Translations under genes and position numbers: made by a program
The notes under the pieces: model-generated
Seen by the model: the letters and a program-made list of their open reading frames with translations, nothing else
The model's database searches: none
Told to the model about the DNA's origin: nothing
Shown here: positions 5,570-17,225 of the stretch, piece after piece
Layout of the letters: each line of letters starts with the position of its first letter
Position numbering within the stretch: position 1 is the stretch's first letter
IMG/VR virus record: IMGVR_UViG_2695420596_000007
Coordinates: 1 to 21,599 of that record
Origin: a virus
Lineage: Duplodnaviria; Heunggongvirae; Uroviricota; Caudoviricetes
Length of the DNA stretch: 21,599 nt
Reading direction: 5' to 3' (one strand)

Positions 5570-6154
5570 TTATTGTTTGTTTTTTTCGTTCTGGTTGATG
5601 ACAAATTCAATGTAACTTTCGATCTTTGCTTTCTCGGTTTCGGGTAACAATGCGTAGCGCGAGCGATCATAGTTGATGGTCGCAGGGTCGTGCGGGTGAA
5701 TCAGTAATTCATAGCCGTGACGCCCGAATGCGGATGCAACATTCTCCAGGGTGGAAATGGAAACGCTGACCTCATTGTTTAACAGGCGGCTAATTGTCAC
5801 CTGGGCGACGCCGGATGCGCGGTGAAGTTTTCCCTGTGTTGAAAGGTCGCGGCTTTCGCTCATCCAGCGTTCCAGGTTGTGAGCCGCCAGCTGACCAATG
5901 TCGCTTGGGCCGACAGGCTGAAAACCTTCCTGAGAAAGCGAACGATCGATATCAAGCCAGTTACGGGGTTTATTGGCGGCAGCTTCAATTTTTCGCGCAA
6001 CCTGGTCGCCGATAACCTTCTTGCCAAGAGCCCAGCGGTTTACCAGATTTGCCTGAGTTCCAAGTTTTTCTGCCATCCGCGTCTGAACACCATTGAATTC
6101 ACGGTCGATCAAGTCGTTGAGATTTTGCCTGCGGACGTCCTGGATACTTTTCAT
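5570..6154 (-). CDS. Prophage repressor candidate: XRE-family protein with two HTH regions and no LexA-like S24 peptidase domain
   Basis: 194-aa ORF; N-terminal HTH (MAEKLGTQANLVNRWALGKK) and a second HTH-like segment (VAQVTISRLLNNEVSVSISTLENVASAFG); no GDSM or Ser-Lys autocleavage signature; divergent from a Cro-like gene. Confidence 0.7.
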   Translation of the reverse strand: MKSIQDVRRQNLNDLIDREFNGVQTRMAEKLGTQANLVNRWALGKKVIGDQVARKIEAAANKPRNWLDIDRSLSQEGFQPVGPSDIGQLAAHNLERWMSESRDLSTQGKLHRASGVAQVTISRLLNNEVSVSISTLENVASAFGRHGYELLIHPHDPATINYDRSRYALLPETEKAKIESYIEFVINQNEKNKQ

Positions 6155-6209: not shown

Positions 6210-6272
6210 TTACCCAACAGGTAAATGCACCTCATAGGTAACTATCCTTGATTTTTGTTACCTTATGGGTGA
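6210..6272. promoter_or_regulatory. Three-site operator cluster between the repressor and Cro-like genes (6210-6224 TTACCcaacaGGTAA; 6227-6241 GCACCtcataGGTAA; 6258-6272 TTACCttatgGGTGA)
   Basis: Palindromes read directly; the arrangement parallels a lambda OR1-3 style divergent control region. Confidence 0.6.
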
Positions 6273-6308
6273 ATATTTATTATCTGAAATAAATATCAGG
6301 CAATAGCT

Positions 6309-6539
6309 ATGAGCGATAACGGACATTTCGATTTCAAAAAGCACTGGCTTGCACTTACTCCGGATGAGCGTGAAGCCTTCGCACAGGAAGCCGGAACGAC
6401 GAGTCACTATATCCAGACTCACTTAACAGGTAAGCGCAAAATGCCAGGTAAAGTATTGATGAATGGGCTTTTTAAAGCCTGTAAAACAAGACAATGGCTG
6501 CGCTCAAAAGCAGAACTGGCATACTTCTTCTACTCATGA
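6309..6539 (+). CDS. Cro-like small DNA-binding regulator
   Basis: 76-aa ORF divergent from the repressor; HTH-like segment EAFAQEAGTTSHYIQTHLTGKRKMP. Confidence 0.55.
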   Translation: MSDNGHFDFKKHWLALTPDEREAFAQEAGTTSHYIQTHLTGKRKMPGKVLMNGLFKACKTRQWLRSKAELAYFFYS

Positions 6540-6560: not shown

Positions 6561-6586
6561 AGACCGCCATCCGGCGGTCTTTTCAT
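6561..6586 (+). terminator. Rho-independent terminator after the Cro-like gene (tR1-like position)
   Basis: Stem AGACCGCC/GGCGGTCT with a 4-nt loop, followed by TTTT. Confidence 0.65.
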
Positions 6587-6594
6587 ATCTATTC

Positions 6595-6609
6595 GTACCT
6601 TAAAGGTAA
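6595..6609. promoter_or_regulatory. Palindrome GTACCttaaaGGTAA (variant of TTACC-N5-GGTAA) just after the terminator
   Basis: Read directly; core TACC-N5-GGTA is perfect. Confidence 0.45.
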
Positions 6610-6689
6610 CAAAAAACCAAATCTGGTTGATCTTTTTTTTGTGTCAGCACAAAATAACCGTAATCCCAATACTAATAACAGGGCTTACC

Positions 6690-6890
6690 ATGGAAATCAT
6701 TACACGTATTGATGCCGCAAAGCGCGGACTTAAACGCTACTACACCGGAAAACCATGTAAGCATGGACATGACAGTGAACGCTGGGTTTACAACGGGCAC
6801 TGTGTTGAGTGCACCATGGAATCAAACCGTCGCATCAGGGCAGAGATTAAGCAGATCATGATTAATTCCTCCCCACAACATTCAAGCTGA
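6690..6890 (+). CDS. Small Cys/His-rich (zinc-ribbon-like) protein; start placed at MEIITRI rather than the listed 6627
   Basis: KPCKHGHDSERWVYNGHCVEC contains a C-x-H..C-x2-C pattern; the listed N-terminal extension looks like non-coding read-through. Confidence 0.4.
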   Translation: MEIITRIDAAKRGLKRYYTGKPCKHGHDSERWVYNGHCVECTMESNRRIRAEIKQIMINSSPQHSS

Positions 6891-6905
6891 TAGCGGAGAT
6901 TAATC

Positions 6906-7697
6906 ATGAGCAGACATGCAACAGATTGGGCCTGGGAGACAGATCCAGGTAGCTCGTCATTAAAGCTCATACTGCTCTCGATGGCTGACAGAGCCGATGA
7001 ATATAACCTCTGCTACCCCAGCATAGAACGCCTCGTTAAAGACACTTGCCTGAATAAAAAAACCGTGCAGGCCGGGCTTATATCGCTCATGAAAATGGGG
7101 CTTATTTCAGATACCGGAGAGAGAAAGGGAGCGACAAAAAGAGTGCGGGTTTTCTCTCTTAATATAACCAAAAACGGGAACATTAAAGGCAACCGGGAAG
7201 GGGGGAATGAACCCGAAAACGGTAATGTTCCCGAAAACGGGAATATACCCAAAAACGGGATGTTGAATGATCCCAAAAACGGGATCCAGAACCAGTCATA
7301 TAACCAGTCATTTAACCAAGAGAGGGAGAGCGGGACAAAAACCGGGAATTCTGTGCCTCATGACCCCGGCGCAAACAACGCCGTGATGAATAACTTTGTT
7401 CCTCCTGGTGGGCCAGGGCAATTAGGCAAATTTGTCATGCATGAACAATGGCAGCCATCAGATGACTTTCTTCGGAAAAGCTCATTGCAGGGGATCTACC
7501 TGGACAGTCTGCCAACGGCACAGGAACTTGCAGAGTTCAGAATTTACTGGATGGCTGAGGGTAAGGCATACCATCAGGCACAGTGGGAGCAGAAGCTGGC
7601 AAGGCGGCTGCAGATTAGCAGACAGAAGCAATCAACATTATCTGATAACAACGTTCCGCACTGGAACAGCCCTGAAGCATGGGAGGATTTCTTGTGA
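6906..7697 (+). CDS. Replication initiator, lambda O-like (N-terminal HTH, iteron-encoded linker, C-terminal domain)
   Basis: 263-aa ORF; SD GGAGA 7 nt upstream; N-terminal winged-HTH-like segment; low-complexity PENGNVPENGNIPKNG linker encoded by DNA iterons; immediately followed by a P-like gene. Confidence 0.75.
   Translation: MSRHATDWAWETDPGSSSLKLILLSMADRADEYNLCYPSIERLVKDTCLNKKTVQAGLISLMKMGLISDTGERKGATKRVRVFSLNITKNGNIKGNREGGNEPENGNVPENGNIPKNGMLNDPKNGIQNQSYNQSFNQERESGTKTGNSVPHDPGANNAVMNNFVPPGGPGQLGKFVMHEQWQPSDDFLRKSSLQGIYLDSLPTAQELAEFRIYWMAEGKAYHQAQWEQKLARRLQISRQKQSTLSDNNVPHWNSPEAWEDFL
7168..7285. repeat. Iteron array inside the initiator gene (five copies of CCC(G/A)AAAACGG(G/T)A at about 7168, 7212, 7230, 7248 and 7272; the middle three 18 bp apart); candidate replication origin
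   Basis: Direct repeats read from sequence, followed by a duplicated AACCAGTCAT segment at 7291-7313. Confidence 0.7.
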
Positions 7698-8479
7698 ACA
7701 ACGTTTTTACCGCGATACAAAACCGTGACGGAGAAGCCCTTTCTCGCATGTCAGGTTATGAGCATCAGTACGTCAACAATGACAATGTGGTTAACATGTC
7801 AGCAGAGAGGCTTGTTGATGCCCTTTTCAAACAGCTGAAACAACTGTTTCCGGCGGCAGTGGTAACCAACCTGAAGACGCCAGAGCAGGAAGTAGCTGCA
7901 AAACAGCAGTGGATTGCTGCGTTTGCCGAAGGGGGGATCCGAACCCGTGAACAGGTTTCTGCTGGTATGCGCCACGCCCGCGCCAGTGATTCTCCGTTCT
8001 GGCCGTCGCCAGGGCAATTCATCAAGTGGTGCAAAGACAGCAAGATGGTTCTTGGCGTCACCATTGACGATGTGATGACGGAGTTTCACCGGTACAGCAA
8101 GGAAAAAAGTTTATATCCTGGTGGTCCCGAAAGATTCCCGTGGCGGCATCCGGTTATGTACTGGGTCGTATGTGATACCCGCCGTGCAATGTATCAGCGC
8201 CAGCTTAGCGAGATAGAGGTTGAGAAACACGCGCGCAGGCTGCTCGATGATTGGGCGAAAAAGGTGGCTTCCGGACAGCAGATACCCGATCCGGTGATCA
8301 GCATACAGGCAAAGCCAGAACCCATGAGTACGCCTCCGGACACAGGGAGAGACGTTTACCATCCACCAGGGCGAAGTTTCGGGTGCATGCCTAACGCCGC
8401 CACCCTTGGGGGAATAACACCGGCGCAGTGGCTGATGGAGGAATACAGGCGAGGAAAGGCGGCAGGATTTATCAAGTAA
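7679..8479 (+). CDS. Replication protein P-like (helicase loader); the real start may be GTG 7694 after SD GGAGGA
   Basis: 266-aa ORF; EQVSAGMRHARASDSPFWPSPGQFIKWCKD closely parallels lambda P (EQVNAGMRVARRQNRPFLPSPGQFVAWCRE) as recalled. Confidence 0.8.
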   Translation: MGGFLVNNVFTAIQNRDGEALSRMSGYEHQYVNNDNVVNMSAERLVDALFKQLKQLFPAAVVTNLKTPEQEVAAKQQWIAAFAEGGIRTREQVSAGMRHARASDSPFWPSPGQFIKWCKDSKMVLGVTIDDVMTEFHRYSKEKSLYPGGPERFPWRHPVMYWVVCDTRRAMYQRQLSEIEVEKHARRLLDDWAKKVASGQQIPDPVISIQAKPEPMSTPPDTGRDVYHPPGRSFGCMPNAATLGGITPAQWLMEEYRRGKAAGFIK

Positions 8480-8516
8480 TACCAGCGCGATAGCGCATTT
8501 TTTTACGCTTCGATAA

Positions 8517-8593
8517 TTACCTGCCAGGTAATAAAATATTCTAAAATCTATTGATTTTGTGTCTTATGTGGTTTTTAATTACCTCAGGGGTAA
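8517..8593. promoter_or_regulatory. Two copies of TTACC-N5-GGTAA (8517-8531, 8579-8593; centres 62 bp apart) flanking a promoter-like TTGATT-N17-TTTAAT; the downstream site overlaps the RBS of the gene starting at 8597
   Basis: TTACCtgccaGGTAA and TTACCtcaggGGTAA read directly. Confidence 0.6.
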
Positions 8594-8596
8594 ATC

Positions 8597-8941
8597 ATGA
8601 GAAAACAGATACAGGCTCTTGGTCGACTCAAAACAGGCCAGATGAACAAAACAGAATCTGCGTATTGCCAGCACCTTGAGCTGCGTAAACGTGCAGGAGA
8701 AATCGTCTGGTATCGATTTGAGGGTATCAAGCTGCGGTTAGCTGACAACACGTTCTATACGCCCGATTTTGCTGTGATGCTCGCCACCGGCGAGATGGAA
8801 CTGCACGAAGTGAAAGGTTTCTGGACCGACGACGCCAGGGTGAAAACCAAAGTCGCCGCAGATCAGTATCCGTTCCGAATCATCGGGGTAACGGTTAAAC
8901 CAAAGAAAGCAGGTGGTGGCTGGAATATCGAAGAGTTCTGA
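8597..8941 (+). CDS. DUF1064-family phage protein
   Basis: 114-aa ORF with the layout recalled for DUF1064 (ELRKRAGEI..YTPDF..HEVKG..YP). Confidence 0.6.
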   Translation: MRKQIQALGRLKTGQMNKTESAYCQHLELRKRAGEIVWYRFEGIKLRLADNTFYTPDFAVMLATGEMELHEVKGFWTDDARVKTKVAADQYPFRIIGVTVKPKKAGGGWNIEEF

Positions 8942-9002
8942 ATCGACGATCTTTTTAGTTATCAATGTAATCAATAAGTTATGTGGATAAGCGAGGGTAA
9001 AG

Positions 9003-9632
9003 ATGGAAAGTAATATCAAAGGGTTAGTTTCCGCCGGGCATGAGATGGCTTCGGAACTGAAAGCAGAATGTGGTGCCGTTGATATGCGCAGCGTGGCAAA
9101 GCTGATCAGCGATTTGGCAACCGGTAGCGGTAAAGCTTTGTCTCGTGCTCGATCAGATAAACAGGCCAGACTTCGCGATATTGATCAACGAATCCGGCAG
9201 GCACAAGAACGCCTGGAATTTTCCCGTAACGCGTTGGCACCGCACGAGCCTGGCGGTCAGTTTTTTGAAGCTCAAGCAGAACTGGCTCGGAGACAGCAGG
9301 CAGAAAGTGAACTTAATGCTCAGGCTGTTTCATTCTATAAAACAGCAGAGGTCAGGACGCCAGACGAAGTAGCTCCTTTTGAGCCTGATAAAATATTGCA
9401 ACAGGCAGAACAAAAAATGATGTCAGATCAGGCAGGAGATATTGATCTGCGCATAGCTGAAGACTCGTTGCTTGAATCACCTGACATGATAATCACCGTG
9501 CTGGATGATGATGGTAATCCACAATCGCGCAGTGCGCGTGAAGTACTGGATGAAGCGAACAGGGAAAGTGAGCAGGCAATACAGGATTCCAGCCTGTTTG
9601 ATGTCGCTGTGGCGTGTTTCTTGAGAGGTTAA
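9003..9632 (+). CDS. Hypothetical acidic coiled-coil protein (209 aa)
   Basis: Strong SD (GAGGGTAAAG) before the ATG; no recognisable catalytic motif; highly acidic C-terminal half. Confidence 0.55.
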   Translation: MESNIKGLVSAGHEMASELKAECGAVDMRSVAKLISDLATGSGKALSRARSDKQARLRDIDQRIRQAQERLEFSRNALAPHEPGGQFFEAQAELARRQQAESELNAQAVSFYKTAEVRTPDEVAPFEPDKILQQAEQKMMSDQAGDIDLRIAEDSLLESPDMIITVLDDDGNPQSRSAREVLDEANRESEQAIQDSSLFDVAVACFLRG

Positions 9633-9637
9633 ATTAA

Positions 9638-12112
9638 ATGAGACAGGAATGTATACAAGCGGTCCAGCAGGCGGCGCAGCGCACGTTAACGGCGCGAGAA
9701 ATACAGAACATTGAAGACCGCATTTATCGAAATATGCGCTCCATTGCTCGTGATGACCCGATGTCGTGGCGACAACTTTCCGAATCAGAGCGGCTATATC
9801 GAGCATCACAATTGGCATCTGAAGAATTACAGCGAGAAGCGGCATTAAAGAAACGTCGTGTGGCCCTCACTATAGCCGCACGTCAGAGATTGGATAAATT
9901 TATCAATAGCTATCAAGGGGCTGATGGGAAACTCGGTGCTCTTAACCGTACTATTGCTTTTAATGCAGACGGTAAATCGAATTTCCTCTCTGTTGAGTCC
10001 AGAACAAAAGCCACTCGTGATTATGCATTGAGTCAATTGCAAGAGGCATTTGAAGCAGTTGACCCTCGCTTTTTTGGCCTGTTTGAAGATGAAGCTGGCG
10101 TGCGTGACCTGGTATATGAAATGCGAGGGCAAAATACTGGCAATGCTAAAGCAAGAAAAGGTGCTAAGGCGTGGAGAGAAGTGACAGATCTACTGCGCCG
10201 CCGGTTTAATGATGCTGGTGGGGACATTGGCTATCTCGAAAACTGGGGGATCCCTCAACATCATTCTATGGAAAAGGTTGGGGCGGTATCAAAGGATAAG
10301 TGGGTTAGCGATGTTATAGGTAAGCTGGATCGCAAATATTATATCCGAGCCGATGGACAACTGATGAACGATGCCGAGTTGTCTGCATTTCTTGGAGAGG
10401 CTTATAACACGATCGCTACTGGTGGGCTGAATAAGCTTACTGATACCGGAATGCGAATTTCCGGCGCACGTGCTAACCGTGGTAATGCATCACGACAGAT
10501 ACATTTCAAAGATGCAGATTCCTATCTGCAATATCAGCAACTTTATGGCGATCGCTCTCTATGGGAAATCATGGTCGGTCACCTGGAAGGTATCAGTAAA
10601 GATATTGCACTGGTGGAAACATATGGCCCAAACCCCGATCATGTTTTCCGCTCTCTTCTTGATCAGGTGAAGGCAGAAACGGCAACAGCTAACCCGAATA
10701 AAACCGGTAAAGTCGAGCGGCTGGCGAACAACACAGAGAATCTGTACAACTTTATTTCCGGAAAGACACAGCCTGTAGCGAATCCGCACATCGCGCGATG
10801 GTCTGACAATATCCGCAACTGGCTGGTTGCCAGCAGACTCGGATCCGCGTTGCTGTCATCGTTCTCTGATCTTGGAACCATGTATCTGTCTGCGAAGGTT
10901 ACCAACCTTCCAATGAACCAGTTATTCCGCAACCAGCTTGAAGCTATGGACCCAACGAACCGTACAGAACTTGCGCGGGCGCGCCGCGCTGGACTGGCGA
11001 TGGAATCTCTACTTGGCAGCGTTAACCGCTGGGCGATGGATAATATGGGGCCGTCTGTGTCTCGTTGGGCGGCAACGGCGGTAATGCGTGCCAGTGGGCT
11101 TACAGCATGGTCAGATGCGCACAAGCGCGCCTATGGCGTAACCATGATGGGAAGCTTGGGAGAAGTAGTGTCACGGACACCAGACCTTCGTAGCCTCGAT
11201 GACTCTGATTTTCGTATCCTGAAAAGTAAAGGGATTACTGACACAGACTGGAGCGTATGGAAGCTGGCGCAACAGGAGGACTGGGGGAACGGTAATAATA
11301 CGATGCTGACACCGGAAAGCATTATGCGTATCCCTGATTTAGCAGTTAAACATCTTGGTGAGCCTGAACGCGTGAAATTTGAGGCAATGCGTAAACTGCT
11401 CGGTGCCGTAACTGAAGAAGTTGATATGGCTGTTATTACACCGGGAGCACGTGAGCAACTGATAACCGGTTCTGGTATTCAGCGTGGAACATGGAAGGGT
11501 GAATTAACGAGAAGTGTTTTCCTGTTTAAATCGTTCCCTATCTCGGTAGTTATGCGTCACTGGCATAGAGCTATGGGGATGCCGTCTGCTGGTGGGCGCG
11601 CAGCATATATAGCAACGTTTTTAGCAAGCACAACCATGCTTGGTGCTCTTTCCATGCAGATTACTGATCTTATTAATGGGAGAAGTCCAAAGGAAATGAC
11701 CGGTGACCACATGGTTAAATTCTGGATAAATGCATTTTTAAAAGGTGGTGGGGCAGGGTTGTACGGTGATTTTCTTTTCTCTGATCACACTAGGTACGGA
11801 AGCGGCGCGCTGGCGTCGATGCTTGGCCCGGTAGCTGGTCTGGTTGATGACGTAGTGAAGATTGCTCAGGGCATACCGTTAAATGCTGTGGAAGGGAAGA
11901 ATGAGCAGACTGGTGGTGATCTGGTGAAGCTGGGGAAGGGGCTGATGCCAGGTGCGAATCTCTGGTACTTGAAGGCGGCTCTCGATCACATGATCTTTAA
12001 CCAGATGCAGGAGTATTTTTCACCAGGCTATTTGCGTAAAATGGAGCAACGTTCGAAGAAAGAGTTTAACCAGACATACTGGTGGCGACCTCAGGATGTC
12101 ACTCCGCAATAA
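9638..12112 (+). CDS. Large hypothetical protein (824 aa), function unknown; has a hydrophobic, glycine-rich C-terminal region
   Basis: Long uninterrupted ORF with SD GAGAGG; no Walker A, HExxH or other motif recognised; C-terminal AAYIATFLASTTMLGALSMQI and GGGAGLYGDFLF segments. Confidence 0.6.
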   Translation: MRQECIQAVQQAAQRTLTAREIQNIEDRIYRNMRSIARDDPMSWRQLSESERLYRASQLASEELQREAALKKRRVALTIAARQRLDKFINSYQGADGKLGALNRTIAFNADGKSNFLSVESRTKATRDYALSQLQEAFEAVDPRFFGLFEDEAGVRDLVYEMRGQNTGNAKARKGAKAWREVTDLLRRRFNDAGGDIGYLENWGIPQHHSMEKVGAVSKDKWVSDVIGKLDRKYYIRADGQLMNDAELSAFLGEAYNTIATGGLNKLTDTGMRISGARANRGNASRQIHFKDADSYLQYQQLYGDRSLWEIMVGHLEGISKDIALVETYGPNPDHVFRSLLDQVKAETATANPNKTGKVERLANNTENLYNFISGKTQPVANPHIARWSDNIRNWLVASRLGSALLSSFSDLGTMYLSAKVTNLPMNQLFRNQLEAMDPTNRTELARARRAGLAMESLLGSVNRWAMDNMGPSVSRWAATAVMRASGLTAWSDAHKRAYGVTMMGSLGEVVSRTPDLRSLDDSDFRILKSKGITDTDWSVWKLAQQEDWGNGNNTMLTPESIMRIPDLAVKHLGEPERVKFEAMRKLLGAVTEEVDMAVITPGAREQLITGSGIQRGTWKGELTRSVFLFKSFPISVVMRHWHRAMGMPSAGGRAAYIATFLASTTMLGALSMQITDLINGRSPKEMTGDHMVKFWINAFLKGGGAGLYGDFLFSDHTRYGSGALASMLGPVAGLVDDVVKIAQGIPLNAVEGKNEQTGGDLVKLGKGLMPGANLWYLKAALDHMIFNQMQEYFSPGYLRKMEQRSKKEFNQTYWWRPQDVTPQ

Positions 12113-14690: not shown

Positions 14691-17225
14691 ATGACGGTCT
14701 CAACCGAAGTTGACCACAACGAATACACCGGCAACGGCGTTACGACATCGTTTCCGTATACCTTCCGCATTTTCAACAAATCCGACCTGGTTGTTCAGGT
14801 GGTTGACCTTGATGAAAATATCGCTGTGCTGGCTCTTGATACTGATTACACTGTCACTGGGGCTGGTGGATATAACGGCGGTAATGTAATTCTGTCGAAG
14901 GCGTTAGCTAACGGTTATCAGATTTCTATATCACGAGAGCTACCAGTTACGCAGGAAACTGATCTGCGAAATCAGGGAAAGTTTTTCGCTGAGGTGCATG
15001 AAGACGCGTTCGATAAGTTAACGATGCTGATCCAGCAGGTTCGAAGTTGGTTTGGCCTGGCACTGCGCAAGCCATCATTTGTGGCAAACTATTACGATGC
15101 TTTGAACAATTACATCCGAAATTTGCGCGATCCTTCAAAGCCTCAAGATGCAGCAACGAAAAATTATGTTGATTCTGTTGTTGATACAAATTTAAGTAGA
15201 ACATTAAGAGTACCAGAGCCAATAAATTCTTTCCCAGGCGCCGAAACGCGGGCAAATATGATGCCTGCCTTCGATAGTCAAGGGAATGCTGTTCTGGTTC
15301 TACCCCCATCAGGTTCTGCATCGGATGTTTTGCTACAACTTGCAAGCGCCGAAGATGGGAAAGGCGATTCACTGGTTGCAGTCAGGCAACCCATTACTGG
15401 TGCTTTATCTCGCACTCAGCACGATAAAAATCAGGATTTCATCACACCACAGGACTTTGGTGTAAAGATGGATGGTACTGACTCTACTGATGCGATCAAC
15501 GCTTTCGTGGAGTATGTGAACGCGATACCTAATACTGATGGAATTCCTGTTGGAGTGCTATTCCCACCAGGTACAATCTCATATTCTAAAGACATGCATT
15601 TCACCAGACCGGTAAGAATTATCTGCGAAGGAACTGTATTCCATTACTTAGGCTCAGGAAACGCCTTTAACATGGGCCCATATGATCTAAGCGGAGACTA
15701 CAACGGAGCTACTGGTAAGACCCCGTTTAATAAGCACTACAGTATTGAAGGTGCTGTTTTTAAGGGGGGGGCAACATCAGGATATGCAATAAATTTTGCT
15801 CATTGGGTAACTTATTGCGATGTATCTAATTGCGAATTCCGTGCGTTTGGCGGAGATGGCTCCTGGGCTGTTAATGCCGAATTTAACAACTGGAGGGTAT
15901 CGGTAAGGGATTGCTTGTTCGAGGCCCATACCGATTTCATAGCTGATAGGGTGAATACACGGAACTTTGTGCGCTGCCCTGGTTACTACGAAGATCATGT
16001 TCTTGGTAAAGTTGTTGATCTTTGGAGTACATTGTTGACGGCAACAAACAATAAGGTGGAAGGTGTTGGCTGGTCGCGTGGCGGGATAGCTTACTGGATT
16101 AGCGGTTGGCGCACGGTTATTGAAGGAGGAGCAAACAATGGCATGCTTACTGATGTTATCATTTCAGCTGGTTGTGCAGATGTAACACTTCTAAATTTCT
16201 ACTCAGAGAAACCATTTGGCCCAGAGGAAGGGGAGGTAATTAAATGCATCCAGCTATCATATGATGATGACCCATATTTTACAGGCAGTAAGGCCGATGG
16301 CGGTGCCGGAATGGTTGATAATGGTGCATCTACATTTGTAAAAAGATTAACAGTAAATGGTAGTTATGCAAATATGGGGCAACCAAATCATGTCAGCCAG
16401 TTCATACACTTTTCTCAAAGTGTTGCATTGGAAAACTTCTGCATTGATAAAGCAACATTCACCCATTATTACTATCCAATTGTTACCCAGCCAGAAATAC
16501 CAGGACATCGTAATTGGTATATTGGGGATGTAAGATTTGATGGGGATTTAGATAAGATAAGCTATCTTATAGAAACTCAATATGCTGGAGTTTATAAACC
16601 ATCATATAGCTCAAGGGTAAAAAATCTTTTAAAAGTTTTTGACGCGTCATCTATAGTTACAGGTTTTGACTCATCAGCACCAGTAAATACTAATTTTGGA
16701 ACTGTCGGTATATCAGCTATATCTGATGGAACCGGAGGTTCAATAAGATTGACAAAGCGAGCAACTAATAATACCTCGGAAGGAGGATATGAACGCAACA
16801 GATTAGATATGCAAAGAAATGCTTTTCAGCTTTCGTGCATAACGCCAGCAACTAGTCAAACTTATTTACAGATGGTTTTTGAAGTTGATATTAGCCCTTC
16901 AAAAATTCAAGGAGTTACTGCTTGCTTGTCATTTATAGCAAAAAGTTACACAAGTGGAGGTGTTTTGTTAACTGGAACGATAGTTTCTCCATCTGGTATA
17001 AATACTGCAGGTGACACGGATGTACTGGTTGCGTCTGATGGAAATTTCTATAGATATTTTATACATTTCCGTGTAGAACCAATGACTTTGGGGGCGAATT
17101 TAGATTCGCCTGATAAAGTATTGGTAAACATTAATCTTCCGGTTGGTAAGGTTTTTGATGTTGACTTGGCGTCACTTGTATTTACTATAGGTGACATCGC
17201 TTATCCTTTAGCTGCATGTTACTAG
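14691..17225 (+). CDS. Tailspike / tail fibre with a T7 gp17-type N-terminal adaptor domain and a central beta-helix-like (candidate depolymerase) domain
   Basis: 844-aa ORF; N-terminus EYTGNGVTTSFPYTF..DLVVQVVD..DTDYTVTG parallels the T7 tail-fibre N-terminal domain as recalled; repetitive G/N/S/T-rich central region typical of pectate-lyase-fold tailspikes; SD GGAG. Confidence 0.8.
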   Translation: MTVSTEVDHNEYTGNGVTTSFPYTFRIFNKSDLVVQVVDLDENIAVLALDTDYTVTGAGGYNGGNVILSKALANGYQISISRELPVTQETDLRNQGKFFAEVHEDAFDKLTMLIQQVRSWFGLALRKPSFVANYYDALNNYIRNLRDPSKPQDAATKNYVDSVVDTNLSRTLRVPEPINSFPGAETRANMMPAFDSQGNAVLVLPPSGSASDVLLQLASAEDGKGDSLVAVRQPITGALSRTQHDKNQDFITPQDFGVKMDGTDSTDAINAFVEYVNAIPNTDGIPVGVLFPPGTISYSKDMHFTRPVRIICEGTVFHYLGSGNAFNMGPYDLSGDYNGATGKTPFNKHYSIEGAVFKGGATSGYAINFAHWVTYCDVSNCEFRAFGGDGSWAVNAEFNNWRVSVRDCLFEAHTDFIADRVNTRNFVRCPGYYEDHVLGKVVDLWSTLLTATNNKVEGVGWSRGGIAYWISGWRTVIEGGANNGMLTDVIISAGCADVTLLNFYSEKPFGPEEGEVIKCIQLSYDDDPYFTGSKADGGAGMVDNGASTFVKRLTVNGSYANMGQPNHVSQFIHFSQSVALENFCIDKATFTHYYYPIVTQPEIPGHRNWYIGDVRFDGDLDKISYLIETQYAGVYKPSYSSRVKNLLKVFDASSIVTGFDSSAPVNTNFGTVGISAISDGTGGSIRLTKRATNNTSEGGYERNRLDMQRNAFQLSCITPATSQTYLQMVFEVDISPSKIQGVTACLSFIAKSYTSGGVLLTGTIVSPSGINTAGDTDVLVASDGNFYRYFIHFRVEPMTLGANLDSPDKVLVNINLPVGKVFDVDLASLVFTIGDIAYPLAACY

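What the first reader, a model, noticed from the sequence alone, without database searches (positions are those of the whole stretch)
7168..7320. Iteron-type replication origin embedded in the initiator gene
Five copies of CCC(G/A)AAAACGG(G/T)A (three at exact 18-bp spacing) lie inside the O-like gene, where they encode a low-complexity PENGN linker, followed by a duplicated AACCAGTCAT segment. This mirrors lambda ori-within-O architecture and marks the likely origin and initiator-binding sites.
Basis: partly seen in the sequence, partly recalled or inferred. Interest (0 to 1): 0.5.

Follow-up and report, generated by a model that had tools for sequence, protein, structure and literature searches.

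The report
Phage replication origin inside initiator gene
Five short palindromic repeats and two 12-base repeats inside a prophage's replication-initiator gene are very probably that phage's origin of DNA replication, built on the classic phage-lambda plan; it is an unannotated but ordinary example of a known kind.

Summary
Five copies of CCCRAAAACGGKA (four exact, one with a mismatch) lie at 7167-7284, against 0.11 expected by chance. Two tandem AACCAGTCAT units follow at 7290-7313.

They sit in the linker-coding part of ORF 6906-7697. This ORF has an N-terminal HTH_36 domain and a C-terminal DnaT-like ssDNA-binding domain. A lambda-P-family helicase loader gene comes next (7679-8479). The window is a phiV10-like (Uetakevirus) E. 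coli prophage.

Each repeat is a 14-bp dyad, TCCCR-AAAA-YGGGA, resembling lambda's TCCCTC-AAAA-CGAGGGA iterons.

Comparative evidence shows selection on the DNA rather than the peptide:
- In about 70 divergent relatives the core is roughly 80-90-fold enriched in the linker.
- It is read in all three frames (PKNG, TQKR, PKTG), and 37% of spacings are not multiples of three.
- Synonymous positions are frozen: Pro is CCC at 87 of 87 sites, against 21% elsewhere.
- Phages with the same C-domain and P gene but another N-domain lack the motif. More distant N-domains carry different dyads at the same place.
- The 12-mers recur at a fixed +16 nt offset from the last iteron.

The AT-rich unwinding region is weak here. 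This is a new member of a known kind, of modest interest.

The parts
6906..7697 (+). Initiator ('O-like') gene, 263 aa. N-terminal HTH_36 DNA-binding domain, repeat-encoded linker, C-terminal DnaT-like ssDNA-binding domain.
   Evidence: ORF. Pfam HTH_36 aa 18-67 (E 1.9e-10) and DnaT domain aa 176-243 (E 1.4e-15). phrog_1032 replication initiation protein, E 7.8e-102. C-domain matches E. coli DnaT structures 6aep/4ou6/2ru8/9zbt at E about 1e-19.
6906..7166 (+). Coding region of the N-terminal winged-helix/HTH_36 domain (aa 1-87), the presumed iteron-binding module.
   Evidence: The domain recurs with the same iteron type next to unrelated C-domains in many phages. 547 clusters at 50% identity match at E<=1e-10.
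7166..7179 (+). Iteron 1, AACCAAAAACGGGA. The left arm is degenerate and it lies 45 bp before iteron 2.
   Evidence: one mismatch. Dyad score 4 of 10.
7211..7224 (+). Iteron 2, ACCCGAAAACGGTA.
7229..7242 (+). Iteron 3, TCCCGAAAACGGGA. It is the best dyad; extended, it reads TTCCCG-AAAA-CGGGAA at 7228-7243.
7247..7260 (+). Iteron 4, ACCCAAAAACGGGA.
7271..7284 (+). Iteron 5, TCCCAAAAACGGGA. The extended dyad GATCCC-AAAAAC-GGGATC spans 7269-7286 and carries two GATC sites.
7289..7320 (+). Two tandem 12-mers (G/T)AACCAGTCAT(A/T)T at 7290-7301 and 7302-7313, plus a partial third (AACCAAG). The segment is moderately AT-rich and A-strand-biased. It is the candidate unwinding element or a second protein site.
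   Evidence: GC 0.38 and AT-skew +0.30 at 7260-7319. The first 12-mer starts 16 nt after the start of the last iteron core, as in about 15 + 17 independent lineages. It is also conserved after the different iterons of Min27-type Stx phage.
7419..7673 (+). Coding region of the DnaT-like C-terminal domain (aa 172-256).
   Evidence: phmmer against PDB, E 7e-20, about 50% identity to the E. coli DnaT C-terminal domain.
7679..8479 (+). Lambda-P-family helicase-loader gene. The start may be the GTG at 7694, as annotated in phiV10.
   Evidence: PF06992 E 1.7e-56. phrog_109 P-like helicase loader, E 1.5e-91. phiV10 annotation.
6255..6283 (+). Promoter-like site (TTGTTA-17-TATTAT) in front of the cro-like gene 6309-6539. 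It is the candidate early-right promoter whose transcription would run towards the origin. This is context only.
   Evidence: Consensus scan only. The number of sites found is not above the shuffle expectation. Position is between the divergent repressor (5570-6154, minus strand) and the cro-like gene.
6561..6580 (+). Terminator-like hairpin between the cro-like gene and the replication genes (tR1-like). This is context only.
   Evidence: The same site is annotated as a putative rho-independent terminator in phiV10.

Best explanation
Positions 7166-7320 are the replication origin of a phiV10-like temperate phage (here a prophage), embedded in its own initiator gene on the lambda plan.

Proposed mechanism:
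1. Dimers of the initiator's N-terminal HTH_36 domain bind the five 14-bp dyad iterons (TCCCR-AAAA-YGGGA; spacing 45/18/18/24 bp) and build an O-some-like nucleoprotein complex.
2. The adjacent 12-mer tandem (AACCAGTCATWT x2) starts a fixed 16 nt after the last iteron, in a mildly AT-rich, A-strand-biased stretch. This is where the duplex is opened.
3. The initiator's C-terminal DnaT-like ssDNA-binding domain and the lambda-P-type loader encoded next door bring host DnaB to the opened DNA.
4. Early-right transcription passes through the site.

Shown here:
- the repeats exist and have dyad symmetry;
- they sit in the inter-domain linker;
- selection acts on the DNA across many lineages and all three frames;
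- the motif co-occurs with the N-domain type;
- the domain architecture and the neighbouring loader gene.

Inferred, not shown:
- binding of the initiator to the iterons;
- the site of unwinding;
- helicase loading;
- transcriptional activation;
- that this is the only origin.
For: (1) The repeats are far above chance: 5 matches against 0.11 expected. The 7203-7260 array is the highest-scoring tandem repeat in the window.

(2) The architecture matches lambda's annotated ori: four dyad iterons in the O linker, then an A-rich tract, then P (PMC5043065; PMC7466680).

(3) An unbiased 7-mer count in the linkers of 35 cluster representatives (N-domains no more than 85% identical to each other) finds CCAAAAA, AAAACGG and CCCAAAA in 26-29 of them, 25-99-fold over the flanks.

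(4) The relaxed core CC[AG]AA[AT][ATC][CT][GT]G occurs 130 times in 12.5 kb of linker. It occurs 9 times in 81.6 kb elsewhere on the same strand, with 18 reverse-complement hits. In an independent set of 34 bacterial-genome loci, fetched after the pattern was fixed, the counts are 91 in 11.8 kb against 7 in about 73 kb.

(5) The constraint is at the DNA level.
- The core is read in all three frames (91/24/15), giving PKNG, (T/S)QKR or PKTG peptides.
- 61 of 166 spacings are not multiples of three.
- At peptide-defined P[KE]NG sites in 61 genes, Pro is CCC at 87 of 87 sites, against 181 of 871 elsewhere.
- At those sites the K/E third base is A at 87 of 87 (66% elsewhere), and Asn is AAC at 81 of 87 (48% elsewhere).
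- In the window itself all four Pro codons in the array are CCC, against a 9% background.

(6) The 130-site matrix is dyad-symmetric about the A-tract. This includes the flanking T,C and G,A positions, which the search pattern did not constrain.

(7) Specificity tracks the N-domain.
- Tyrion and Klebsiella phages keep the same C-domain and P gene but have another N-domain. They have no core hit in the gene and carry other repeats.
- Relatives with unrelated C-domains keep the motif.
- L127 has GGTGCA-AAAA-TGCACC x4.
- Min27-type Stx O (29% identity) has GGGGCAGGAGCTGCCCC x3 at the same position.

(8) The 12-mer motif gives 53 hits in linker regions against 5 elsewhere, and 52 against 8 in the independent set. 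Its first copy sits at +16 nt from the last iteron core in about 32 lineages. Spacing is 11, 12 or 13 nt, so copies are read in different frames.

(9) Domesticated bacterial DopC has the same HTH_36 + DnaT_C architecture next to a P-like DopE. It is reported to lack iterons and not to be an origin (PMC5509034). That is what one expects if the repeats serve the origin rather than the protein.
Against: - There is no experimental evidence for this phage group. Nothing was found in the searched literature, and the phiV10 GenBank record annotates no origin.
- The unwinding element is weak in this window. The least stable 40-mer next to the iterons is -49.5 kcal/mol, against a window mean of -54.0 (sd 4.6). 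Lambda's AT-rich tract reaches -44. The family-wide AT rise is modest, 0.60-0.65 against 0.50.
- Iteron 1 and the left arms of iterons 2 and 4 are degenerate.
- 70% of cores are in one frame, so some peptide-level constraint cannot be excluded.
- Iterons and the N-domain coding region are physically adjacent, so co-inheritance alone explains part of the co-occurrence.
- Copies within a gene arise by duplication, so the p-values overstate independence.
- The first-set patterns were derived from the same loci. This was remedied by the independent set.
- The window appears to be a deleted prophage, so this particular copy may no longer fire.
Confidence: 0.8

Rival explanations
1. The repeats are only a protein feature: a low-complexity, flexible N/P/G-rich linker that grows and shrinks by replication slippage. 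The DNA sequence itself has no function.
For: The repeats are in frame in this window (spacing 45/18/18/24) and encode a plausible disordered linker. Copy number varies from 4 to 9 among near-identical prophages, as slippage-prone coding repeats do. 70% of family cores are in the PKNG frame.
Against: - The same DNA core occurs in all three frames, and 37% of spacings break the frame.
- Synonymous positions are frozen across 61 divergent genes: CCC 87 of 87, AAA/GAA 87 of 87, AAC 81 of 87.
- Each unit has dyad symmetry, which a peptide does not need.
- Domesticated DopC proteins of the same architecture are reported to lack such repeats (PMC5509034).
Confidence: 0.04
2. The dyads are real binding sites of the initiator, but they act in regulation: autoregulation or a roadblock on O/P transcription, copy control, or handcuffing. 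The actual origin lies elsewhere, for instance in one of the AT-rich intergenic regions at about 6580-6660 or 8500-8600.
For: The least stable DNA near the replication genes is intergenic. The 40-mer at 8528 has -40.4 kcal/mol, and GC is 0.27-0.30 at 6580-6660 and 8500-8600. The AT-rich element next to the iterons is weak. Iterons in plasmids also serve copy control (PMC4980987 and PMC5043065, listed; general knowledge).
Against: - Those intergenic regions carry no iteron core cluster. The only other hits in the window are single ones at 6617 and 15116.
- Those regions coincide with promoter- and terminator-like signals.
- The fixed 16-nt coupling of the last iteron to conserved 12/13-mer tandems across about 32 lineages looks like one origin unit.
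- In lambda and Stx phages the same layout is the proven origin (PMC5043065, PMC7466680).
Confidence: 0.1
3. The dyads are bound by some other protein rather than by the initiator's own N-domain. Candidates are a host factor, the phage repressor or anti-repressor, or the small Cys/His-rich protein encoded just upstream (6690-6890).
For: Binding has not been tested. The small upstream ORF (phrog_1081) is conserved in phiV10-like phages and its function is unknown. The 12-mer motif persists even where the iterons differ, which would fit a common host factor for that part.
Against: - The iteron type follows the N-domain type across phages with otherwise different gene contents and hosts, from Enterobacterales, Vibrio, Acinetobacter and Burkholderia to Desulfovibrio.
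- GF-2, Her, AB1 and Bcep176 have different upstream genes.
- The dyad-with-A-tract design and the position right after the wing-coding region mirror the lambda O/iteron pair.
Confidence: 0.05

Closest known systems
Phage lambda ori-lambda with O initiator and P loader
   Same: - Several dyad-symmetric repeats with a central A-tract and TCCC...GGGA outer arms. Lambda has TCCCTC-AAAA-CGAGGGA; here it is TCCCR-AAAA-YGGGA.
- The repeats are located in the part of the initiator gene that encodes the inter-domain linker.
- An A-rich, strand-asymmetric segment follows on the 3' side.
- A P-family loader gene lies immediately downstream.
- The module sits downstream of a repressor / cro-like switch.

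   Different: - The iteron is 14 bp rather than 18-19 bp.
- Spacing is 18/24 bp rather than 20-24 bp.
- There are five copies (4-9 in relatives) rather than four.
- The AT-rich tract is replaced by two or three conserved 12/13-mers of only moderate AT content.
- The initiator N-domain is Pfam HTH_36, not Phage_rep_O, with no significant sequence similarity.
- The C-domain is DnaT-like rather than lambda O's own C-domain.
Stx-converting lambdoid phage origins (933W, P27)
   Same: The origin sits in the O gene, and the number of iterons varies between relatives (six against lambda's four). The extra iterons matter for replication (PMC7466680). This is comparable to the 4-9 copy polymorphism seen here.
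   Different: Those phages have lambda-type O proteins and lambda-type iterons. Here both the protein family and the iteron sequence differ.
DopC/DopE, domesticated O/P-like pair of Cellvibrionales and Oceanospirillales (PMC5509034)
   Same: Identical two-gene architecture: an HTH_36 + DnaT C-terminal domain protein followed by a PF06992 P-like protein.
   Different: DopCE are resident chromosomal genes. They are reported to have no iterons and not to be at the replication origin. Here the pair is in a prophage and carries the iteron array. I could not fetch dopC loci to verify their lack of iterons myself.
Iteron plasmids and oriC-type origins with 13-mer unwinding repeats (RK2, P1, F, oriC)
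   Same: An array of initiator-binding repeats lies next to short tandem 12/13-mers where opening would occur (PMC5043065).
   Different: - There is no Rep_3/TrfA-type initiator.
- There is no DnaA box nearby.
- The iterons are dyads for dimers, not direct repeats for monomers.
- The 12-mers are far less AT-rich than the oriC or RK2 13-mers.
- The origin lies inside a coding sequence.
E. coli primosomal protein DnaT
   Same: The C-terminal 85 residues are about 50% identical to the DnaT ssDNA-binding three-helix domain.
   Different: The N-terminal half of DnaT is absent and is replaced by an HTH_36 domain plus iteron-encoded linker. The database names 'primosomal protein I' and 'DnaT' therefore describe one domain only.

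Membership tests
Lambda-type origin (ori inside the initiator gene) | Four or more dyad-symmetric initiator-binding repeats located within the initiator ORF, in the inter-domain linker | tested here: met
   Five dyads at 7166-7284, between the HTH_36 domain (aa 18-67) and the DnaT-like domain (aa 172-256).. Lambda reference.
Lambda-type origin (ori inside the initiator gene) | A+T-rich, strand-asymmetric unwinding region directly 3' of the iterons | tested here: inconclusive
   7260-7319 has GC 0.38 and AT-skew +0.30. The 40-mer stability is only -49.5 kcal/mol against a window mean of -54.0, while lambda reaches -44. The family-wide AT rise is 0.60-0.65 against 0.50. Conserved 12/13-mers are present.
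Lambda-type origin (ori inside the initiator gene) | Initiator belongs to the lambda O family (Pfam PF04492, Phage_rep_O) | tested here: not met
   Pfam gives HTH_36, not PF04492, whereas lambda O gives PF04492. BLASTP shows no significant match. hhalign gives probability 2.7-3.6%, E about 0.01. PMC5509034 reports HHpred linking the lambda O N-terminus to HTH_36; this was not reproduced here.
Lambda-type origin (ori inside the initiator gene) | Lambda-P-family helicase loader encoded immediately downstream | tested here: met
   ORF 7679-8479: PF06992 E 1.7e-56 and phrog_109 E 1.5e-91.
Lambda-type origin (ori inside the initiator gene) | Location in the early-right operon, downstream of the repressor / cro-like switch, so that transcription crosses the origin | tested here: inconclusive
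   The gene order repressor(-), cro-like(+), small ORF, O-like, P-like is as expected. The promoter and terminator calls are consensus matches not above shuffle expectation.
Lambda-type origin (ori inside the initiator gene) | Initiator binds the repeats, and the fragment supports initiator-dependent replication | not testable with these tools
   Needs EMSA or footprinting and a replication assay. No such data were found for phiV10 or epsilon15-like phages.
   The window has 5 cores. 28 of 35 viral cluster representatives, and about 20 of the 34 loci in the independent genome set, have three or more. 97 of 120 full-length cluster representatives show three or more signature peptides.
   In the window the last core starts at 7273 and the first 12-mer pattern at 7289. 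The same +16 offset occurs in about 15 + 17 lineages.
Iteron plasmid origin (Rep_3/TrfA/pi type) | Rep-family initiator, direct (non-dyad) iterons, and adjacent DnaA box(es) | tested here: not met
   No Rep family hit in Pfam. The repeats are dyads. The nearest DnaA-box-like site is 7786-7794, with a mismatch, and the overall count is barely above chance: 11 against 5.7 expected, reached by 3 of 100 shuffles.
DopC/DopE domesticated pair | HTH_36 + DnaT_C protein next to a P-like protein | tested here: met
   Definition from PMC5509034.
DopC/DopE domesticated pair | Resident chromosomal (non-prophage) context and absence of iterons | tested here: not met
   The window is a prophage with integrase, RecET-like genes, repressor, tailspike and endolysin, and it carries iterons.
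E. coli DnaT (primosomal protein I) | Full-length DnaT: N-terminal oligomerisation/PriB-interacting half plus the C-terminal ssDNA-binding domain | tested here: not met
   Only aa 172-256 match DnaT, at chain residues about 85-169 of 179. The N-half is HTH_36.

The most novel reading that the evidence does not exclude
The iteron array plus the fixed-offset 12/13-mer tandem defines a large origin family that, as far as I could find, has not been described. It comprises hundreds of 50%-identity clusters and spans phages of Enterobacterales, Vibrionales, Alteromonadales, Acinetobacter, Burkholderia and even Desulfovibrio.

In this reading a nearly invariant 14-bp dyad is recognised by an HTH_36 initiator domain that is freely recombined with different C-terminal and loader modules. 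The conserved 12/13-mers would be a sequence-specific opening or loading site, for example bound as ssDNA by the DnaT-like C-domain or by a host factor, rather than a mere AT-rich tract.

A corollary concerns bacterial DopC/DopE. They would descend directly from a phiV10-type (HTH_36 + DnaT_C / P) phage module that lost its iterons on domestication, rather than from a lambda O gene that later acquired a DnaT domain.
Probability: 0.35. Interest if true: 0.5.

Novelty: new member of a known kind. Interest (0 to 1): 0.3.

Why it matters
- It places an origin on the map of phiV10/epsilon15-like phages. These prophages occur in about 8% of complete E. coli genomes (424 of 5426), and their initiator is currently mislabelled 'primosomal protein / DnaT'.
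- It provides a simple DNA signature, TCCCR-AAAA-YGGGA repeats followed at +16 nt by GAAYCNNYCA tandems. This signature can annotate origins in hundreds of related phage and prophage lineages.
- It is a clean example of overlapping DNA-level and protein-level constraints. The same motif is read in three frames and its synonymous sites are frozen.
- The natural 4-9 copy-number polymorphism and the modular N-domain/iteron swaps are ready material for studying origin specificity.
- It does not change how phage replication is understood.

Tried and rejected
- Typing phage 9. Its match starts inside the iterons and first looked like a recombination breakpoint. It is an assembly gap, a run of N.
- Homology to lambda O. 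BLASTP, hhalign with a 6-sequence profile and hhalign with a 121-sequence profile gave no significant similarity (probability 4% or less). The weak alignment is in the same register: helix, then wing, then first iteron. Membership in the O family proper is therefore rejected.
- The 'replication protein O' hits in Stx phages turned out to be Min27-type O proteins with their own iterons, not lambda-type O.
- AlphaFold2 on the single sequence gave pLDDT 36.7, which is unusable, so no fold search was run.
- The whole-protein database search returned only relatives that are more than 83% identical and differ mostly in length. It was useful only as evidence of repeat-number polymorphism.
- DnaA boxes and GATC density gave nothing at the origin, apart from two GATC sites in the last iteron.
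- The terminator-like hit on the minus strand at 7275-7256 is merely an iteron dyad.
- Literature searches for phiV10 or epsilon15 with origin or iterons found nothing relevant.
- I could not retrieve dopC loci to check their reported lack of iterons.
Full report
**1. What is in the sequence**

The window at 7160-7320 reads TAATATAACCAAAAACGGGAAC...GAACCCGAAAACGGTAATGTTCCCGAAAACGGGAATATACCCAAAAACGGGATGTTGAATGATCCCAAAAACGGGATCCAGAACCAGTCATATAACCAGTCATTTAACCAAG.

All five are on the + strand, at 7167, 7212, 7230, 7248 and 7272. Shuffles expect 0.11 matches, and none of 100 shuffles reaches five. Spacing is 45, 18, 18 and 24 bp.

The 7203-7260 array is the highest-scoring tandem repeat in the window, and the 12-bp AACCAGTCATWT tandem at 7290-7318 is the second highest. 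The 10-mer count alone is not significant. One addition: every unit is an inverted repeat around an A-tract, best seen in TTCCCG-AAAA-CGGGAA at 7228-7243 and GATCCC-AAAAAC-GGGATC at 7269-7286.

**2. Gene context**

The repeats lie inside ORF 6906-7697 (263 aa). It has an N-terminal HTH_36 domain (aa 18-67) and a C-terminal DnaT DNA-binding domain (aa 176-243). It belongs to phrog_1032, 'replication initiation protein'. The C-terminal 85 residues are about 50% identical to the solved ssDNA-binding domain of E. coli DnaT.

The next ORF, 7679-8479, is a lambda-P-family helicase loader (PF06992, E 1.7e-56). A divergent two-HTH repressor and a cro-like gene lie upstream.

The region is 96-99% identical to Escherichia phage phiV10 and other Uetakevirus phages. 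The phiV10 record calls the gene 'putative primosomal protein' and annotates no origin. The gene occurs at 90% identity or more in 424 of 5426 complete E. coli genomes. The repeats encode the linker NEPENGNVPENGNIPKNGMLNDPKNGIQNQSYNQSFNQ between the two domains.

**3. Comparison with lambda**

Lambda's record annotates four iterons inside O, at the linker. They read TCCCTCAAAACGAGGGA, TCCCCTAAAACGAGGGA, TCCCTCAAATTGGGGGA and TCCCTCAAAACAGGGGG, followed by an A-rich tract, with P downstream. The literature describes the same anatomy and its activation by pR transcription (PMC5043065; PMC7466680).

The window's units share the outer TCCC...GGGA arms and the central A-tract, but they are 14 bp rather than 17-19 bp.

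**4. Is the DNA or the peptide under selection?**

This was the key question. Phages whose N-domain is 44-58% identical but whose C-domains are unrelated all carry CCC(A/G)AAA(A/T)(C/T)GGG-type dyads right after the HTH-coding part. These are Edwardsiella GF-2, Vibrio Her, Acinetobacter AB1 and AP22, E. coli PPompW and Burkholderia Bcep176.

I then fetched 160 diverse viral contigs, which form 34 clusters at 85% N-domain identity. The results were:

- An unbiased 7-mer count finds CCAAAAA, AAAACGG and CCCAAAA in the linkers of 26-29 of 35 representatives, at 25-99-fold enrichment.
- A relaxed core pattern occurs 130 times in 12.5 kb of linker. It occurs 9 times in 81.6 kb elsewhere on the same strand, with 18 reverse-complement hits.
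- The core is read in all three frames (91/24/15), producing PKNG, (T/S)QKR or PKTG peptides.
- 61 of 166 spacings are not multiples of three, with modes at 17/18 and 24/25 bp.

The five clusters without the relaxed core have variant dyads at the same place, such as GTCCCAACGTTGGGAC. The most divergent one has GGTGCA-AAAA-TGCACC x4.

Because the pattern had been derived from these loci, I fixed it and applied it to 34 newly fetched loci from named bacterial genomes. These included Providencia, Proteus, Vibrio, Pseudoalteromonas, Marinobacterium, Wohlfahrtiimonas, Acinetobacter and Desulfovibrio. The counts were 91 hits in 11.8 kb of linker against 7 in about 73 kb elsewhere.

Sites defined only at the peptide level (P[KE]NG, 87 sites in 61 genes) have frozen synonymous positions:

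| Position | At the sites | Elsewhere in the same genes |
|---|---|---|
| Pro codon is CCC | 87 of 87 | 21% |
| K/E third base is A | 87 of 87 | 66% |
| Asn codon is AAC | 81 of 87 | 48% |

In the window itself all four array prolines are CCC, against a 9% background.

The 130-site matrix is symmetric about the A-tract, including flanking positions that the pattern did not constrain. At the scale of 1.84 billion cluster representatives, the N-domain has 547 relatives at E<=1e-10. Of the top 120 full-length ones, 97 show three or more signature peptides in the linker.

**5. Specificity**

Enterobacter phage Tyrion and Klebsiella phages share the DnaT-like C-domain and the P gene (78-81% nucleotide identity from the 3' end of the O-like gene onward). 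They have an unrelated N-domain, contain no core hit in the gene, and carry other repeats instead.

A Min27-type Stx phage O protein has an N-domain only 29% identical. It carries three GGGGCAGGAGCTGCCCC dyads at the same relative position.

So the iteron type follows the N-domain type and not the C-domain or loader, as in lambdoid phages. Physical adjacency accounts for part of this. It does not account for the preservation of the DNA motif at 45-60% protein identity.

**6. The second element**

It gives 53 hits in linker regions against 5 elsewhere, and 52 against 8 in the independent set.

The first copy starts exactly 16 nt after the start of the last iteron core in about 32 lineages, as it does in the window (7273 to 7289). 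Copies are spaced 11, 12 or 13 nt apart, so they are read in different frames (NQSL versus EPVI). The element even follows the unrelated iterons of the Min27-type phage.

AT content rises to 0.60-0.65 over the 40 bp after the last iteron, against 0.50 background. In the window this stretch is only mildly unstable, at -49.5 kcal/mol against a mean of -54.0, while lambda's tract reaches -44. I take these 12/13-mers as the likely opening or loading site. This is inference, and the 'AT-rich region' criterion is only weakly met.

**7. Polymorphism**

Among 80 prophages whose N-domain is 99-100% identical, complete genes carry 4-9 iterons. The mode is six and the window has five. They carry 1-3 AACCAGTCAT units. 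phiV10 itself has six iterons and three units. This recalls the four against six iterons of lambda and Stx phages.

**8. Relation to known families**

The module works like ori-lambda with O and P, but the initiator is not a member of the lambda O Pfam family. Its domain architecture equals that of DopC, the partner of the domesticated P-like DopE. DopC is reported to lack iterons and not to mark an origin (PMC5509034). That fits the view that the repeats serve the origin and not the protein.

It is not an iteron-plasmid origin. There is no Rep protein, no DnaA box, and the repeats are dyads rather than direct repeats.

**9. Verdict**

Binding, opening and replication remain untested. I rate this a new member of a known kind. 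It is useful for annotation and a clean example of dual coding, but not surprising to a specialist.

Confidence that the array is the initiator-binding part of the phage origin is about 0.8. Because the window looks like a deleted prophage, this particular copy may be inactive.

Noticed in passing
window about 8941-9640 (junction near 9118): Similarity to phiV10 jumps here from the early region (about 35.6 kb in phiV10) to phiV10 position 16,341, in the virion structural genes. No phage record and none of 5426 complete E. coli genomes spans this junction. ORF 9003-9632 looks like a fusion: its N-terminus matches phrog_250/492 and its C-terminus matches phrog_1145 residues 415-594. The window is probably a deleted, defective prophage lacking terminase, portal and capsid genes.
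   Followed up: partly
L012-L091 (80 phiV10-like loci), region homologous to window 7160-7320: Iteron number is polymorphic (4-9 in complete genes, mode 6) among prophages whose N-domain is 99-100% identical. The 12-mer occurs in 1-3 copies. Protein lengths run from 263 to 311 aa in databases.
   Followed up: yes
L017 and nine other loci; homologous to window about 7620-7860: Ten of the 80 loci carry an alternative last 25 or so residues of the O-like protein together with an alternative first 60 or so residues of the P-like protein. This mosaic patch spans the gene junction. It could mark the O-P contact surface, or it could be a single recombination tract.
   Followed up: partly
L003:1580-1760 and L004:1578-1758 (Tyrion, Klebsiella phage): The O-like genes have the same DnaT-like C-domain but a different N-domain. 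In the linker they carry a GTACCGTATGAGTACGGTACTGATACGGTAC palindromic cluster and a 3 x GGATCAG(G) tandem. These are candidate iterons of a different specificity.
   Followed up: partly
L251:1490-1600 (Stx2a_F403, Min27-type): A 'replication protein O' with a distant HTH domain has three GGGGCAGGAGCTGCCCC dyads. These are followed by CAGAACCTATCA and GAACCAGTCA, the same 12-mer motif as in the window. The gene is followed by a large replication protein rather than a P-like loader.
   Followed up: partly
L127:1462-1564: The most divergent N-domain in the set (47% identity) is accompanied by four GGTGCA-AAAA-TGCACC dyads spaced 35/23/23 bp. The design is the same but the arms differ, which suggests a possible specificity switch.
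   Followed up: no
window 7269-7286: The last iteron is flanked by two GATC (Dam) sites, at 7269 and 7283. The duplicated units in relatives add more. GATC is not enriched in the window overall. A possible methylation or SeqA influence was not examined.
   Followed up: no
window 6690-6890 and 6856-6909: A small conserved ORF (66 aa, Cys/His-rich, phrog_1081, unknown function) lies directly upstream of the initiator gene. A perfect 11-bp inverted repeat, TCATGATTAAT / ATTAATCATGA, brackets its stop codon and the initiator's start codon.
   Followed up: no
window 6906-7697; GenBank and RefSeq records of relatives: Database names for this gene are 'primosomal protein I', 'DnaT' and 'DnaT-like ssDNA-binding domain-containing protein'. 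These reflect only the C-terminal domain. None of the records examined annotates the gene as containing an origin.
   Followed up: yes
L268 (Desulfovibrio sp. PCE-4 chromosome), 1201-2110: A Desulfovibrio prophage-like locus has an N-domain 54% identical to the window's. It carries seven iteron cores alternating between frames (2121202) and the 12-mers at +16/+28. This shows the module extends beyond Proteobacteria.
   Followed up: no
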